Below are positions 1 to 32,000 of a stretch of DNA of 32,000 bases, one piece after another; the first letter of the stretch is position 1; each line of letters opens with the position of its first letter. The DNA lies in IMG/VR virus record IMGVR_UViG_3300045988_073130, positions 64,069-96,068 of that record, one strand, 5' to 3'. Below the pieces are notes generated by a model. The model saw nothing but the letters and a program-made list of their open reading frames with translations, had not been told where the DNA came from and did no database searches. This DNA comes from a virus. The position numbers and the translations under genes are program-made.

Positions 1-794
1 GGGGCTGGAGCAGGATTTTCAGAAGTCTTTTTCTTCTTACCCTCTTCGGGATTTGGAGTATTTTTCTCGAAATCAGTAGGTACTTTCTTCTCATTCTCCA
101 TAGGTTCTTGAGAGCCTCCTTTATTTAAAGTTTCTTTTAATTGATCCATCATAGAATACATCATAGTTTTAAGTTTCTAAAACTCTTGATTATTCTCTAA
201 AGAAAATTGAGAACTAAATTGAGCTCCCTCGAAACAAGGCTCAACATTTTCTCCGAGAACACATAATTTCTCAATCAATGCCTCATTGTAGATAAAGATT
301 CTTTCATTTGTTTTATCATCTTTTGTCCAAAATCCTGATTGATTTTCTTCATTCAATTCCATAGAATGGTTATTGCCATTCTCCAGGATTCTTTTAGATT
401 CTGGATAAACGCTAGTCCAAATGTATACATCTGCCACAAGATATTCTCTTTCTACGCCTTCATCATTGAACTTCTAAAACCATACATTTGCATTTGTAGG
501 AACAAATCCATATGGTCTTGTGGTATCAACAATAGCAAACTTACCATCTCGAACAATAATTTCTCTGTTGTGGCCTTCAAAATCATTTATTTCATGATTA
601 AAATATCCAACAATAGGACTTCCTGGTAGTTTACGTCCCATTTCCGCGGCCACTTCTTTGGTAATTACAGTATGGTTGCGGTTAGGTTGCTACCCAACGT
701 AGCAAACTTTGCAGACACCTTTACTAACTAGAGGAGAAATCTAAGTGTTCTAAATATATTCCATCGTATTTAAAATGGGAACACTAATATGCAA
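1..794 (-). CDS. Head-morphogenesis protein, 3' end outside window (scaffold or prohead-protease-like by position); 5 in-frame TAG
   Basis: The TTG start at 794 lies 8 nt after AGGAGG (803-808), just downstream of the portal stop. Track ORF 177..437 is one fragment of it. Reading through TAG (e.g. 750-752, 741-743) gives one open frame to the window edge with no TAA or TGA. The tail is Lys/Glu-rich. Function is inferred from gene order only. Confidence 0.5.
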
Positions 795-808
795 GTTCAA
801 TCCCTCCT

Positions 809-2434
809 TTATGACGAACTTTCTTGATTAGCTATTGTCTTATCTGACTTTTCGCCATCTTCTTTTTTGGGCCTGCCGGCTCCATTAGTATTAGTTGAAC
901 TTGTCTACTTATTCTAAGAATTAGTTTTAGATGACTAATTATTATTACCCAAATCTTTTCCGCTTCTGGTATTAGAACTCATAGGCGGAATCATAATTTC
1001 TGCTAAATTCAATACTTCGTTCTCAAATGTTAATGTAGCTAATATACTCGATTGAGAATGACCTAAAGCAATCTGTGGCAACATCTTAGAATAACCCAGT
1101 TGAGCGTGCTCTTTATATAATTTAGATAACTCTTTATAATTAAACTAAGTAGTTTCTAACATTTCCGCTCTAAACTCATAATGATTTTTGCGATTAAATT
1201 TCTCTACTACTCGATTTAATAAATCTGTAAACATGAGAGGAATATCTCTTACGCTAGATTCATCTGTCAAAATAGAATTTGTAACTGCAATATTGCCATC
1301 TGCATTAAACAAATTATGAGTTACACCTGAGTTATTATAAACTGTACGTTCAACTTTTTCCAAATCGTCTGTCGTTGTATTAGAATTATTATCTTTTGTA
1401 TCAATTTTTTCAATATCTGCAAAAGTTGTTAATACATCTACACCAATAGCTCGTTTTAACATAGTTACAGCATTATTATGAATATCCCTTGCTTCATCAA
1501 CATCAAAAATCAAATCTCCATTTTTATCAAGAGGCAACTTCTAAATAATAATTTTTAATAATTGTTGCATTGTCTTTTGACGATCTAATTCTTGCGCTTG
1601 ATCCAAATCAATAATAGAAGGAATAACCCCAGCTAGAAAAGGAAATTCATTATCATTTAGACTAAACTTTACAGAAATACTAGGATCTAGTGGATACCAT
1701 ACAGTAGTATCACCTGGATAATCCCCTTTTAATTTTCCCTGTTTATAAAGAATATATGCCTTTTGAATGTCCTGTGGAAAAATCTTTAATATCTAGATTT
1801 TATACTGCGGATTGGCAAAATAAGTGTCAAAAAACTAAAGATTTAATTCTACTATTGGATTAGGGCCCTAGAAATATCTACTTCTGCAATATGAAGCTGG
1901 TAATTTCTAAATTGCAAATCTATCTCCAAAATCAACAATTACACCATAATAAGCTCCTTCTTTAATAATATCTAATGATATATTTCCAAGCATTCTCTTC
2001 ACACTAGATTTATCAAGGTAAAGCAAGACCTTTGAAAAATCTTTCAATAGCTTATCTTTATCTTTCTACGCGTCTACTGTGTATGGAGTAATATACCAAT
2101 CAAATCTATATAAGAAGGCTAAATATTTACATAATCTATAATAAATACCGCTACTTTCATAAAAGTAATTAGAAATCTCTCTTAAAGTCTTGTAATCATG
2201 CTTATAAATAGCATTTAATACAAACTTTTTATCTCCATAATTTCTATTTATCTTTTTATATGTGCCTAGATTAATAAGCGCATCATCCACAGACCGTAAT
2301 CCAACTCGCATTTTTGCATAATCAACAGTATCATAGTTCAAAAAATCTTCTTCCTATTGATAACGAGTAATAATACCTCGATCTAGTAGATCAAAACCTT
2401 TAGCTCTTATTTCTTCCTATCGACGTTTTAACAA
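809..2434 (-). CDS. Portal protein (541 aa) with 12 in-frame TAG
   Basis: The TTG start at 2434 lies 7 nt after GGAGG. Track fragments 2066..2341 and 1145..1537 share a frame, and hand translation of 809-2434 finds only TAG interruptions and a TAA stop at 809-811. The size and the position just after TerL fit a portal, as does the Asn/Ser/Lys-rich C-terminal tail. Confidence 0.65.
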
Positions 2435-2451
2435 AATATCACCTCCAGGTG

Positions 2452-2808
2452 TTAATATCCAGCTTTACTCATTAAATAATCATAAGAGATGATATTTTCC
2501 TCCGTATAGGGAACTTCAATGAGGGTAATACCTTTTAATGCACAAAATCTACGCTTTTGATTATCATTATATTTCTATTGGTATAATCCTCTATTTCCAC
2601 CAAATTTACTAACAGCCTAATAATGCTATTTACCCTGATACTCAATTAAAAAATCAAGATTTCCATCATCATCAAAAACAGCAAAATCAAAACGAAGTGG
2701 CCTACCACTTGGTGCTTTCAGCCCAGGAAACTCATACTCTTCTTTAAAGTTCATGCCATTTTGCTCTAATATCTCATGAATTTTAATTTCTCCACGACTG
2801 GCCTTCAT
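2452..2808 (-). CDS. Small restriction-endonuclease-fold (Vsr/DUF559-like) nuclease, possibly a free-standing homing endonuclease; 3 in-frame TAG
   Basis: ATG at 2808 and TAA at 2452-2454. The pattern E..L...G..F..E..F......RFDFAV......IEYQGKQH...........Q.D..K..FC...GI.LIEV resembles the PD-(D/E)XK Vsr-like fold. The gene is wedged between TerL and portal. Confidence 0.5.
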
Positions 2809-2811
2809 ATC

Positions 2812-4557
2812 TCACACCTCACTCATAAACATAAAATCTGAAAATCTTCTACTTTTACGCTTGCGTTTACTATCTTCTTCCTATTTAATATAATATAATC
2901 CATATTCAAGCGCAGAGAATTTATCTTTGGGCACAGACTTATTTGCCTGTTTTAAAATAATATTTACACCCTCATTTTCTTCTCGCAAATTTAGCATTTC
3001 TTCTCTTAATATAGAAGTTAAAGTGAATGGTTTTAAATATTCTGCCCGCTCTTCTGGTTTCATGGCTTGACCTTTCTTGGTACCAAGTAATTTATTTCTA
3101 GCAACTTTTTCGTCGATTAAAAATCTTAACTTTCCAGCCCGCAACTATGTCTAAACATTGCTATGGGCTTCGGTATTAATTGGCGCATTTGCCTTAATTT
3201 CATAAATAGCATCATATTCTGTATTATCTGTTCTAAATCGTTTGTATTCTCCATCTTCATCATTAGCTACACCAAAATCAGGAAAAACTTCATTGGTATC
3301 TGGCACTATTTGTGGTTTAACCATATAATCCATCAATCCAGCACCAAGTCCATTACCGTCAATAACAATAATTTTAGCTTTATAATCATAATATAATCTT
3401 TTTAGCTTAATTGCCTAATCTTCAAAATGTTCATCATCCATAGTATATATATTAACAAGAGACTTAATCGCTGGTCCTTGAGACTGAGGGGTTACTTTAA
3501 ATACACATACAACAGATTGACATTTCTTTCTTCCTACATCAACAGAAAGAACATAATATGCTTGAGCAGAAGAGCGCCCGGAAGATTCATATTCAGGCTA
3601 AAGCAATTTTCTACTTCTATCAAAAGCATCACCATTAAAGAAGGCATCTTCTACGGTGCCACTCCATTTAGATTCATACTCTCTATCAAATGATGCTTCA
3701 TTAAATGTACCATCTTGTTTTAACTCCTATACAAAGTTGCGGGATTGCAATCCCACTAGCACAGGAATTCTCCATGTTCCGCCCATTACAATACTCTTTT
3801 CGGGTTCTAGTATCATGCGCACTAGCAAAGTAATCAACTTATTATATGGGAATGTGTTTTTCCACCCCGCAGTAGTTACATAAATCTAAGATTTATTAAG
3901 TGTTTCTTCTTCATGAACAGATCCGTCTAAACATCTTCTATCAACGTTCATTAGAGGGATTAAAACTTCATTTAAAATATCTCCATCTACACCAACGCAC
4001 TCCTCAATTAATCCTCCATGTCTACGCTTACCACGAGAAGATTCTCTAGCCGCGACGTTGTCAAAATAAGATCCATTTTTGAAGATATACTTACAATAAT
4101 CTTTTCCTTCCTAAGTCTTACCTCTTCGCCAATCAATCTCTCTCTAAAGTGCGGGAATCGCATTACAAATTTCCTAGACTTTTTCTTTTGCAATACCTGC
4201 TGCCTATTCTTTTCCGCCAGAAGTAATGAATAGCTTACATCCAGGATATAATATACATCTACACATAAGTACCATTACTGATAAGAATGACTTAGAATAA
4301 GCACGGGGAAATACCATGTATACATACTTATATCTCATGGCCGCCCGCAAGAAAACTCTCTAATAAAAATAAAAATTAATTTCTTTTTTTCTTGTCTCGT
4401 CTCCGCCGGTCTACAAAAAGTCAATAAACATATCTGGATATTCTCTCCAAAAAGCTATATACTATCTTGCTGCTGGAATTATCGCACGAACTCTTTCTTC
4501 GGAAAGACCAATTTTCTTATTATTATTTGAAAGGTTTAATAAATCTTTTAATGCCAT
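2812..4557 (-). CDS. terL: Terminase large subunit (581 aa) with 14 in-frame TAG
   Basis: ATG at 4557 lies 8 nt after GGAGG; TGA stop at 2812-2814. Motifs seen: a deviant Walker A (FPRAYSKSF), a Walker B-like GKRRHGGLIEE, IYVTTAG, and a nuclease-domain VIDGNGLGAGL. Track fragments 2881..3144, 3151..3336 and 4008..4193 are pieces of this single frame. Confidence 0.8.
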
Positions 4558-31470: not shown

Positions 31471-31504
31471 TAACAATTTAACTTTATTAAAAGGAGAAAC
31501 TACT

Positions 31505-31690
31505 ATGAACGTATTTCATTTAAGCAAGAAGCAAATTAAAATTTTAAAGGGTATGTACCTGTCTGAAATGCAGCCCGATATTTCATGGGGCGAACTTGCC
31601 AATGCAGACAAAATCGTGTCAGACAAAGAAATCTATGAGCACTATGCGAATACTGACTTCTGCGACGAAGATTTCGAGGTAGGAATGTAA
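31505..31690 (+). CDS. Hypothetical protein (61 aa)
   Basis: ATG follows AAAGGAGA; the track start at 31454 has a weaker context. TAA stop. Confidence 0.5.
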   Translation: MNVFHLSKKQIKILKGMYLSEMQPDISWGELANADKIVSDKEIYEHYANTDFCDEDFEVGM

Positions 31691-31696
31691 ACAATC

Positions 31697-31728
31697 GGGA
31701 GAGCTGCATAAAATGCGGCTCTCCCTTT
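31697..31728 (+). terminator. Hairpin, probable terminator
   Basis: GGGAGAGC pairs with GCTCTCCC, followed by TTTG. Confidence 0.55.
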
Positions 31729-31817
31729 GCTATTGCGCTATCAGCGGGCAATTCGAATCAATCCAAAAGCATACTGTTTCAATAATGATGAAAATGAAAC
31801 TAAAAGGAGATACCCCT

Positions 31818-32000
31818 ATGAATACAGATATGACGAACCTTTACAGATCACGCGGAATGATACCCAATCGCTATTGGTATCAACTGAACGGGCAATCCGC
31901 ACAGGCGAATTGGTTGGAGCAACGCGAGGCGATATATTCCCGCATTCAGGAGCAGGAAGAAGAGGTCGTCCCCCAGATCATCTTTACAAGCGAGGTGAAG
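31818..32000 (+). CDS. Hypothetical protein, 5' part only (runs off the window)
   Basis: ATG lies 8 nt after AAAGGAGA. The frame is open to the window end (61 codons). Confidence 0.45.
   Translation, partial: MNTDMTNLYRSRGMIPNRYWYQLNGQSAQANWLEQREAIYSRIQEQEEEVVPQIIFTSEVK

What the first reader, a model, noticed from the sequence alone, without database searches (positions are those of the whole stretch)
1..32000. TAG is a sense codon throughout this phage segment, most likely Gln
Seen directly:
- The apparent ORF debris at 1-6800 (-) joins into full-length TerL, portal and neighbouring genes if only TAG is read through. No TAA or TGA needs to be ignored.
- In-frame TAGs also sit inside recognisable folD, ung, RHH, AbrB-like and GIY-YIG genes on both strands and in both AT-rich and GC-richer modules.
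- All of the more than 45 gene ends I checked are TAA or TGA, never TAG.

Amino-acid identity:
- The ung TAG (27608) aligns with Q of E. coli Ung IYPPQKDVF.
- The folD TAG at 7988 aligns with Q of E. coli FolD ENTLQAC.
- The RHH TAG gives the common MSQVIR helix start.
- The two E. coli sequences are recalled from memory.

Amber-to-Gln recoding is a known phenomenon in some gut phages, so the code itself is not new. It does decide how everything else in this window must be annotated.
Basis: partly seen in the sequence, partly recalled or inferred. Interest (0 to 1): 0.8.

Follow-up and report, generated by a model that had tools for sequence, protein, structure and literature searches.

The report
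Amber-to-glutamine recoded gut phage segment
This window comes from a common gut phage that reads the stop codon TAG as glutamine, which is already known, but its last 2 kb belong to a bacterial chromosomal island whose replication and nuclease genes also need TAG read as glutamine although the island has no suppressor tRNA.

Summary
On the minus strand of 1-6852, six ORFs (2287 codons) hold 53 in-frame TAG and no TAA or TGA. Table 15 raises coverage by ORFs of 100 aa or more from 6% to 94%; table 4 does not. At the window's TAG columns, relatives carry Gln 52% of the time against a 3% background, and no other residue is enriched. Cultured standard-code phages have Gln at the conserved TerL positions. 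Same-species IMG/VR contigs carry a tRNA(CUA) beyond a roughly 30-tRNA array. TAG is about ten times denser in the packaging block than in the early/middle genes. All this is known biology: code 15, the late-gene bias and the phAss-1 relatives are published, and public gene callers already emit these exact proteins with Gln.

One thing was unexpected. Window 29973-32000 is 99.9% identical to an 8-kb integrative island at tRNA-Pro in Oscillospiraceae chromosomes. It joins the phage inside a shared 21-nt promoter motif, which may be an assembly chimera. Across 43 bacterial genomes, the island's GIY-YIG and RepA-like genes carry in-frame TAGs at conserved Gln columns. dN/dS downstream of a shared TAG is about 0.2. 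The integrase is TAG-free and no tRNA(CUA) is present.

The parts
3..827 (-). phrog_3313 protein; the gene runs off the left end of the window; 5 in-frame TAG
   Evidence: one TAG column holds only Q or TAG in 48 relatives
809..2464 (-). portal protein, 12 in-frame TAG
   Evidence: phrog_2739, E 4e-79, covering residues 73-540; TAG columns 249 and 399 hold only Q or TAG
2452..2811 (-). 118-aa nuclease-like protein between TerL and portal, 3 in-frame TAG
   Evidence: PHROG homing-endonuclease and HNH families; present in all 80 related loci; two columns hold only Q or TAG
2812..4560 (-). terminase large subunit (SPbeta YonF type), 14 in-frame TAG
   Evidence: the exact protein with Q at each TAG is on record on 550 contigs
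4561..5730 (-). YonG-like protein, 8 in-frame TAG
   Evidence: phrog_3314; Pfam YonG_N on the public gene call
5737..6852 (-). sigma-factor-like protein with a C-terminal zinc ribbon, 11 in-frame TAG
   Evidence: phrog_5767, E 3e-38; TAG columns are mostly Q
7190..8014 (+). FolD, 4 in-frame TAG (the last at 7988); its TAA stop overlaps the next ATG
   Evidence: Pfam THF_DHG_CYH and THF_DHG_CYH_C cover residues 6-259 of 261; PDB alignments
12993..13292 (+). AbrB/MazE-like protein, 1 in-frame TAG inside the gene
   Evidence: phrog_4681; sequence
20328..21183 (-). three small regulatory genes (132 aa, 73 aa, and a 47-aa RHH) with 1, 3 and 1 in-frame TAG
   Evidence: RHH PHROG hits; relative L087 has Q at the RHH TAG, E at the third TAG of the 73-aa gene, and TAG where the window has Q
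27467..28216 (+). uracil-DNA glycosylase, 1 in-frame TAG at 27608, upstream of the GQDPYH motif
   Evidence: PDB Ung matches, E 1e-47, spanning the TAG
29973..30010 (+). junction: 38 nt shared by the phage relatives and the bacterial island; crossover inside TATATAATATATATAGAAAGT, a copy of the repeated promoter motif
   Evidence: the junction 46-mer is absent from IMG/VR and from JGI metagenomes
30052..30814 (+). island genes: an 85-aa protein and a 174-aa RepA-like replication initiator, both TAG-free in this copy
   Evidence: exact 85-aa protein found only in bacterial island contexts; phrog_270
30964..31470 (+). island GIY-YIG nuclease with in-frame TAG at 31183 and 31390
   Evidence: phrog_1111; the closest homologue has Q at both positions and the family continues past the second TAG; called as a 73-aa stump on more than 600 standard-code contigs

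Best explanation
Window 1-30010 is part of a roughly 100-165 kb siphovirus-type gut phage with an SPbeta/YonF-type packaging module. It is a distant relative of phAss-1 and decodes TAG as glutamine (translation table 15). Shown: TAG is an ordinary sense codon in the coding frame. It alternates with CAA and CAG among relatives. Genes end in TAA or TGA. TAG makes up half of all Gln codons in the packaging block but only 8% in the early/middle genes. Same-species genomes encode a tRNA with a CUA anticodon. Inferred: early genes, most of which are compatible with the standard code, are translated first from sigmaA-type promoters. The phage tRNA(CUA) accumulates and is charged with Gln, directly or through the transamidation route. 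It then outcompetes host RF1 at TAG, so TAG-rich packaging and other late genes become translatable only late in infection. This is the timing model already proposed for code-15 phages. The last 2 kb are a separate element, covered under the novel case.
For: - Frame statistics and ORF coverage under tables 11, 15 and 4.
- Family matches spanning the TAGs.
- Gln is enriched 16-fold at the window's TAG columns across 7-55 relatives per gene. Many columns hold only Q or TAG.
- The closest non-TAG neighbour is Gln in 128 of 286 columns.
- Cultured standard-code phages have Q at the conserved TerL positions.
- TerL TAG counts vary from 0 to 15 among relatives with the frame intact.
- tRNA(CUA) lies at L090:17433-17508 and L091:17436-17511, on contigs 97-99% identical to the window. 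Rfam scores it as a tRNA at 59.8 bits. It is very similar, by eye, to a phAss-1 suppressor tRNA.
- The late versus early bias has Fisher p = 8e-15.
- Exact Q-substituted proteins are already in public collections on hundreds of contigs.
- Published precedent: PMC10607447, bioRxiv 10.1101/2021.08.26.457843 and PMC9523058.
Against: - There is no tRNA in the window itself. The suppressor is inferred from same-species contigs.
- Similarity of the tRNA body does not single out Gln: Trp 0.71, Met 0.71, Gln 0.70.
- No release-factor or aaRS gene was seen in the roughly 60 kb of the genome that I could read.
- There is no protein-level evidence for this lineage.
- Some early-gene TAG columns are variable rather than Gln.
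Confidence: 0.95

Rival explanations
1. The fragments are debris of a decaying prophage, or separate short genes, and TAG is a true stop.
For: Under table 11 the block splits into pieces averaging about 39 codons. PHROGs holds separate families for the N- and C-terminal halves of this TerL, phrog_15503 and phrog_24618.
Against: No TAA, TGA or frameshift occurs in 2287 codons, against about 187 expected from the off-frame rates. The same frames stay intact in more than 50 diverged relatives, with TAG interchanging with CAA and CAG. The half-length PHROG families are best read as products of table-11 gene calling on recoded phages.
Confidence: 0.01
2. TAG is sense but encodes something other than Gln, such as pyrrolysine, Trp, Glu or Lys, or a mixture of residues.
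For: ARAGORN labels the CUA tRNA 'Pyl'. The tRNA body is as close to the phage tRNA-Trp as to its tRNA-Gln. Some relatives carry extra CUA tRNAs with long variable arms.
Against: At TAG columns the enrichments are K 0.64x, W 0.22x and E 1.09x, against Q 16x. Invariant-Gln columns in standard-code phages are the ones occupied by TAG. U35 and G73 with an unpaired 1:72 fit Gln identity; this last point rests on established tRNA-identity knowledge and was not tested here.
Confidence: 0.03
3. The window is not one molecule. Positions 29973-32000 were joined to the phage by a metagenome assembler at a shared 21-mer, so the GIY-YIG example says nothing about this phage.
For: The window matches phage contigs up to 30010 and bacterial island contigs from 29973, and the crossover lies in an identical 21-nt stretch. 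The junction is absent from IMG/VR and JGI metagenomes. The RepA-like gene has no close relative in 2.9 million viral contigs. In same-species contigs the tRNA array follows directly at this point.
Against: Phage and island share a specific promoter motif and the TAG=Gln usage, so real recombination between co-resident elements is plausible. Twenty-one identical bases are short for modern large-k assemblers.
Confidence: 0.55
4. The in-frame TAGs in the island's GIY-YIG and RepA-like genes are inactivating mutations of toxic genes (CAG to TAG transitions), not a code.
For: CAG to TAG is the commonest route to an amber mutation. Public gene calls show truncated products. The bacterial hosts use TAG as a stop: 27 of 245 long ORFs in these loci end in TAG.
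Against: Fifteen of 17 unique GIY-YIG copies and 16 of 47 RepA-like copies carry only TAG interruptions. None has TAA, TGA or a frameshift, and each reaches a family-typical end. dN/dS downstream of a shared TAG is 0.18-0.26 at dS up to 1.5, the same as upstream. Integrase and regulator genes of the same islands hold 0-1 TAG in about 7000 codons.
Confidence: 0.1

Closest known systems
Code-15 (TAG to Gln) gut phages: crAss-like, Lak, Garnet, Amethyst and Topaz clades (bioRxiv 10.1101/2021.08.26.457843; metaproteomic proof in PMC9523058)
   Same: [quoted passage not shown]
   Different: This lineage has an SPbeta/YonF-type packaging module. It also carries a very large tRNA array plus a tmRNA, seen in same-species contigs. 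No release-factor or aaRS 'code-change module' was seen in the parts I could read.
phAss-1 and the proposed Phassvirus group (OQ749652; PMC10607447; NCBI 'Caudoviricetes code 15 clade')
   Same: Genome size of roughly 136 kb, the same TerL family, a homologous CUA tRNA very similar to the one in same-species contigs, the same TATAATANNTATAGAA motif (24 copies), a predicted clostridial (Oscillospiraceae-like) host, and recoded and non-recoded members side by side.
   Different: TerL is only 44% identical. There is no nucleotide-level match to any GenBank phage. The window is therefore a different genus-level lineage, not a Phassvirus.
TAG-recoded Topaz and Garnet prophages integrated in standard-code Oscillospiraceae and Prevotella (bioRxiv 10.1101/2021.08.26.457843, section 'Recoding in prophages')
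   Same: For the island part of the window: an element resident in a standard-code chromosome, a TAG-free integrase, and other genes with in-frame TAG.
   Different: Those are complete 24-kb phages with structural genes. The island here is 8.0 kb and has no capsid, terminase or tail genes. No CUA tRNA was found in 609 kb of island loci.
Phage-inducible chromosomal islands, namely PICIs and the Vibrio cholerae PLE with its RepA and NixI nuclease (from my own knowledge, not tested here)
   Same: A small integrase-bearing island at a tRNA gene, with a replication initiator and a nuclease in one operon. Its activity would depend on an infecting phage.
   Different: No induction, packaging or interference function has been shown. 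The proposed trigger, the helper's suppressor tRNA acting at the level of translation, is not a described induction mechanism for PICIs or PLE.

Membership tests
Genetic code 15 phage (TAG = Gln) | Conserved genes are interrupted only by TAG, never by TAA or TGA | tested here: met
   53 TAG, 0 TAA and 0 TGA in 2287 codons; table 15 restores 93.5% coverage and table 4 does not
Genetic code 15 phage (TAG = Gln) | TAG positions align with Gln in homologues | tested here: met
   Q is 51.6% at TAG columns against 3.2% background; cultured standard-code phages agree
Genetic code 15 phage (TAG = Gln) | Phage-encoded suppressor tRNA with a CUA anticodon | tested here: inconclusive
   None in the window. 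Present in two contigs 97-99% identical to the window. Its presence in the window's own genome is inferred.
Genetic code 15 phage (TAG = Gln) | TAG is not used as a terminator | tested here: met
   39 TAA, 6 TGA and 0 TAG among 45 complete genes. Every first-stop TAG is followed by continuing homology.
Genetic code 15 phage (TAG = Gln) | Recoded codon enriched in late structural or packaging genes | tested here: met
   23.2 against 2.5 TAG per 1000 codons; Fisher p = 8e-15
Genetic code 15 phage (TAG = Gln) | Gln found at TAG positions in the proteins themselves | not testable with these tools
   Needs (meta)proteomics
Proposed genus Phassvirus (phAss-1) | Nucleotide identity of about 80% or more and the same synteny as phAss-1 | tested here: not met
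   No megablast match in the phage collection; TerL is 44% identical
Pyrrolysine decoding | TAG aligns with Lys or Pyl positions, and pylTSBCD genes are present | tested here: not met
   K is depleted at TAG columns, 0.64x. No pyl genes appeared among the Pfam and PHROG hits.
Phage satellite or phage-inducible island (for window 29973-32000) | Integrase and att repeats at a tRNA gene, small size, no virion genes | tested here: met
   8,021 bp between 50-nt repeats of the tRNA-Pro 3' end; gene list
Phage satellite or phage-inducible island (for window 29973-32000) | Induction, replication and packaging depend on a helper phage | not testable with these tools
   Only indirect support: TAG-dependent RepA-like and GIY-YIG genes, no CUA tRNA, and a promoter motif shared with the phage clade

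The most novel reading that the evidence does not exclude
The 8-kb tRNA-Pro island, and its relatives in Oscillibacter, Pseudoflavonifractor, Hominicoprocola, Dysosmobacter and other Clostridia, is a hitch-hiker on, or a defence against, TAG-recoding phages. Its integrase and regulators are written in the standard code. Its RepA-like initiator and GIY-YIG nuclease contain TAG at conserved Gln positions. The island has no suppressor tRNA. Full-length proteins would therefore be made only when an infecting code-15 phage delivers its tRNA(CUA), so the invader's genetic code itself would be the induction signal. The window would then capture either a real recombinant between such an island and its helper phage, or two partners from one sample that share a promoter type.
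Probability: 0.45. Interest if true: 0.8.

Novelty: new member of a known kind. Interest (0 to 1): 0.5.

Why it matters
For annotation, the point is practical. With table 11 the packaging block of this very common gut phage disappears; its TerL is on record in 872 blocks of the public collection. Some reference families, phrog_15503 and phrog_24618, look as if they were built from the resulting fragments. For biology, the phage itself only adds one more lineage to the known code-15 phages and fits the published late-gene timing model.

The island result would matter more if it holds. It would show that a small chromosomal element without its own suppressor keeps genes that only a recoding phage can unlock. 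That would turn a speculative remark in the literature, about sensing another phage's suppressor tRNA, into a testable system in cultured Oscillospiraceae isolates.

Tried and rejected
- An exact 54-mer from the right end of the window found nothing in IMG/VR.
- Megablast of window 1-7000 against GenBank phages found nothing.
- No tRNA(CUA) lies within 10 kb of TerL in 55 relatives. It was found only after walking across the tRNA array.
- tRNA body similarity could not assign the amino acid.
- Presence of a CUA tRNA correlates only weakly with table-15-specific ORF gain across relatives (p = 0.026).
- No theta or HDV-like ribozyme, nor any other Rfam family, lies next to the suppressor tRNA.
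- Unsupervised clustering of island ORFs was swamped by conserved non-coding frames, so I replaced it with query-anchored counts.
- Runs of same-frame ORFs at 11613-13292 and similar places proved to be intergenic terminator and promoter repeats, not genes.
- I first read the shared motif as a phage-specific promoter. It turned out to have ordinary -35 and -10 sigmaA elements, so it does not by itself imply phage-dependent transcription.
- Three literature searches for satellites or islands using code 15 found nothing relevant.

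
Full report
**Observation**

The window is 32 kb with 36% G+C and contains no tRNA gene. If only TAA and TGA are treated as stops, the minus strand of 1-6852 resolves into six back-to-back ORFs. 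They are 275+, 551, 119, 582, 389 and 371 codons long and hold 5, 12, 3, 14, 8 and 11 in-frame TAGs.

In their frame there are 53 TAG, no TAA and no TGA in 2287 codons. The two other frames hold 78 and 141 TAA, 39 and 116 TGA, and 55 and 43 TAG. So TAG is as common in frame as out of frame, while the other two stops are excluded completely.

ORFs of at least 100 aa cover 5.7% of this block under table 11, 93.5% under table 15 and 10.2% under table 4. In the rest of the window, relaxing any stop codon lengthens ORFs by a similar amount, so that region is not diagnostic by this measure.

**What the genes are**

The read-through products match whole families across their TAGs:
- Portal: phrog_2739, E 4e-79.
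- A TerL that aligns in one tblastn piece over 93% of its length with TerL of Enterococcus phage H1, Geobacillus virus E3 and SPbeta-like Bacillus phages.
- A YonG_N protein.
- A sigma-factor-like protein and a small nuclease-like protein.

FolD and Ung match Pfam and PDB families on both sides of their TAGs.

**Which amino acid**

TerL has 277 relatives in IMG/VR, and 80 loci were fetched. Their TerL genes carry 0 to 15 TAGs with the frame intact.

Alignments were built with TAG masked as X. At the window's TAG columns in 15 genes, the relatives carry Gln in 1080 of 2095 cells. That is 51.6% against a 3.2% background, a 16-fold enrichment. The next residue, Glu, is at 1.09-fold. About 15 columns hold nothing but CAA, CAG and TAG.

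Taking the closest non-TAG neighbour once per column gives Gln in 128 of 286 columns, Glu in 35 and Lys in 30.

Five cultured phages of standard-code hosts serve as an independent control. They have Gln at 22 of 67 cells aligned with the 14 TerL TAGs, against a 3.9% background. All five have Gln at FYQR and HFxxQ.

Coxiella Ung has Q at the Ung column and other PDB homologues have S, V or R; that E. coli Ung also has Q there is from memory, not from these alignments. These columns are compatible with Gln but weak evidence.

In the minus-strand regulatory module, relative L087 has Q at the RHH TAG. It also has TAG at a position where the window has Q.

**Uneven use**

| Region | TAG per 1000 codons | TAG share of Gln codons |
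|---|---|---|
| Packaging block, 1-6852 | 23.2 | 49.5% |
| 40 early/middle genes | 2.5 | 8% |

Thirty-two of the 40 early/middle genes have no TAG at all (Fisher p = 8e-15). This is the late-gene bias already described for code-15 phages (bioRxiv 10.1101/2021.08.26.457843).

Stops of the 45 complete genes are 39 TAA and 6 TGA. The absence of TAG stops is partly circular, because the ORFs were defined by reading through TAG. I therefore checked each gene whose first stop is TAG, and coding evidence continues past the TAG in every case. For example, the folD TAA overlaps the next ATG, and the third TAG of the 73-aa gene is a Glu codon in L087.

**The suppressor**

Two IMG/VR contigs, UViG_3300045988_084596 (146 kb) and _091188 (105 kb), are 97-99% identical to window 1-30010. 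In both, an array of about 30 tRNA genes and a tmRNA starts right after the point that corresponds to window 30010.

About 17.7 kb further on lies a 76-nt tRNA with a CUA anticodon. It has a U1-U72 mismatch and G73. It is a clear Rfam tRNA at 59.8 bits and is very similar to one of the three suppressor tRNAs of phAss-1.

Twenty-six of the 51 related loci with any tRNA call carry a CUA tRNA. Contig 3300043105_000140 has no TAG in TerL and no CUA tRNA in its array. Similarity of the tRNA body does not decide the amino acid; the codon tables do.

**What is already known**

- phAss-1 (TerL 44% identical) is filed by NCBI under 'Caudoviricetes code 15 clade'.
- Its paper describes TAG-to-Gln recoding, suppressor tRNAs and a wider group that mixes recoded and non-recoded genomes.
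- Six of the window's proteins, written with Q at each TAG, are already present letter for letter in the public protein collection. TerL is on 550 contigs and is listed in 872 blocks of the collection.
- Public gene calls at these loci are full length.

The recoding of this phage is therefore already handled by current pipelines. What is new is only that this genus-level lineage has, as far as I could find, not been described.

**An unexpected element at the right end**

Window 29973-32000 (47% G+C) is absent from the same-species phage contigs. It is 99.9% identical to metagenome scaffolds of bacterial origin.

There it is part of an island of 8,021 bp, bounded by 50-nt direct repeats of the 3' end of tRNA-Pro(cgg), next to tRNA-Sec, selB and selA. 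The island's genes, in order, are:
- An SLH-domain protein.
- Two small leftward genes.
- An 85-aa gene.
- A RepA-like gene (phrog_270).
- A GIY-YIG nuclease gene.
- Several small genes and an HTH gene.
- A tyrosine integrase.

The crossover with the phage lies inside 21 identical bases, TATATAATATATATAGAAAGT. The junction sequence occurs nowhere in IMG/VR or in JGI metagenomes. The RepA-like protein has no close relative among 2.9 million viral contigs. I cannot tell an assembly chimera from a genuine recombinant, and I lean slightly towards a chimera.

**The island also needs TAG = Gln**

The window's GIY-YIG ORF has two in-frame TAGs, at 31183 and 31390. Public standard-code calls truncate it to 73 aa on more than 600 contigs, some longer than 350 kb. 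The closest full-length homologue has Gln at both positions, and the family continues beyond the second TAG. Three further homologues that looked truncated all stop at TAG and then read on, in frame, to the family's normal end.

The RepA-like protein retrieved 43 loci from bacterial genomes. They include isolates of Hominicoprocola fusiformis, Oscillibacter valericigenes, Pseudoflavonifractor phocaeensis and Oribacterium. The counts below were made over these and the eight metagenome island loci fetched earlier (L153-L160), 51 loci and 609 kb in all.

| Island gene | Unique copies | Copies with in-frame TAG | Detail |
|---|---|---|---|
| GIY-YIG | 17 | 15 (1-3 TAG each) | TAG sits in the two best conserved Gln columns: AQHY (4 TAG, 10 Q) and xQIP (5 TAG, 11 Q) |
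| RepA-like | 47 | 16 | TAG columns are 52% Gln against 4.9% background |
| Integrase | 15 | 0 | 0 TAG in 3669 codons |
| Four small regulatory genes | 5-24 each | 1 in total | One TAG among them |

Further points from the same loci:
- No CUA tRNA occurs in the 609 kb of island loci.
- The flanking bacterial genes do use TAG as a stop: 27 of 245 long ORFs in the 43 genome loci end in TAG.
- Among copies that share one TAG, dN/dS downstream of it is 0.18-0.26, at dS between 0.14 and 1.5. This is the same as upstream. That result argues strongly against pseudogenes.

**A shared promoter motif**

TATAATANNTATAGAA, allowing one mismatch, occurs 10 times in the window against 0.11 expected. It occurs 24 times in phAss-1 and at 0.07-0.48 per kb in the related phage loci.

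In the 609 kb of bacterial island loci it occurs 32 times. Thirty of those lie on the same strand within 900 nt upstream of the RepA-like gene. Permuted control motifs average 1.3 matches, with a maximum of 18.

The motif is the -10 element plus start region of ordinary sigmaA-type promoters, with TTGACA- or TTGCAA-like -35 boxes 17 nt upstream. It links the island family to this phage clade. It does not by itself show phage-dependent transcription.

**Interpretation**

For the phage I commit to the published model. Early genes are compatible with the standard code. A phage tRNA(CUA) is charged with Gln. The TAG-rich packaging and late genes are unlocked once the suppressor has accumulated. 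The decoding itself is shown by comparative evidence. The timing and the competition with RF1 are inferred.

For the island, the reading I consider most interesting and not excluded is this: its replication initiator and nuclease are gated by the helper's genetic code. The closest precedents are the TAG-recoded Topaz and Garnet prophages with TAG-free integrases. The same paper also speculates that recoding could let a phage sense another phage's suppressor tRNA. Those prophages are complete phages, whereas this is an 8-kb element without virion genes or a suppressor of its own. I found no paper describing such an element.

**Verdict**

The finding is real and its interpretation is right, but it describes known biology in a lineage that is new only as a member of that kind. 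The follow-up worth making concerns the island at the right edge of the window.

Noticed in passing
window 29973-32000; L153:6595-14665: The right end of the window is 99.9% identical to an 8,021-bp integrative island at tRNA-Pro(cgg) in Oscillospiraceae chromosomes. It is joined to the phage inside a shared 21-nt promoter motif, and this junction is found in no other assembly searched.
   Followed up: yes
L161-L203 (43 bacterial genome loci); window 30964-31470: The island's GIY-YIG and RepA-like genes carry in-frame TAG at conserved Gln columns in bacterial isolates and MAGs. dN/dS downstream of a shared TAG is about 0.2. The integrase is TAG-free and there is no CUA tRNA nearby.
   Followed up: yes
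window 12816, 15912, 22000, 24192, 24532, 25497, 26626, 29984 (+ strand); 19636, 26543 (- strand): The repeated motif TATAATANNTATAGAA occurs 10 times against 0.11 expected. It forms the -10 and start region of sigmaA-type promoters placed 25-40 nt before gene starts. The same motif is in phAss-1 and upstream of the island operon.
   Followed up: yes
L084:12091-21302, L089, L090:54-18567 (same-species contigs): An array of about 32 tRNA genes plus a tmRNA (tag peptide DNDYFENYLAA) starts where the window's phage part ends. The tRNA(CUA) sits apart from the array, between tail-fibre-like genes and a DUF2828-like gene.
   Followed up: partly
L089:4894-5010: A tRNA-like gene (Rfam tRNA, 49.8 bits) has a 55-nt insertion in place of the anticodon arm. 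One hairpin in the insert has the loop UCUUUAAC. ARAGORN does not call it. Next to it is a Tyr-like tRNA (anticodon GUA) that ARAGORN also misses.
   Followed up: partly
window 20000-20333: Six to ten tandem copies of a roughly 30-nt unit containing the inverted repeat TTTCATGGTATT...AATACCATGAAA. They lie between the plus-strand block and the minus-strand RHH module and look like iterons or an operator array.
   Followed up: no
window 11936, 13370, 14257, 17444: Four copies of a G+C-rich hairpin followed by a T run, then TTGCACAATT. These look like intrinsic terminators and account for several spurious long ORFs in the 40-45% G+C stretch.
   Followed up: no
window 19951-21300: The minus-strand regulatory module (RHH and two small genes) is replaced by other sequence in the two same-species contigs. 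It is present at about 80% identity in L087, so it is a variable cassette.
   Followed up: partly
L126, L115, L116, L132: Some relatives gain more ORF coverage under table 4 (TGA as sense) than under table 15, for example L126 with 0.73, 0.81 and 0.97 under tables 11, 15 and 4. This hints at TGA recoding within the same broad clade. L115 and L116 nevertheless carry two CUA tRNAs.
   Followed up: no
L094, L099, L113, L115, L121, L125, L130, L132, L133: Many relatives carry CUA tRNAs of 88-97 nt with a long variable arm, as does phAss-1 (sup1). Their amino-acid identity is unclear.
   Followed up: no
window 2812-4560: PHROG families phrog_15503 (245 positions) and phrog_24618 (230 positions) match the N- and C-terminal halves of this TerL and have 'unknown function'. 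They look like families built from table-11 fragments of recoded terminases.
   Followed up: no
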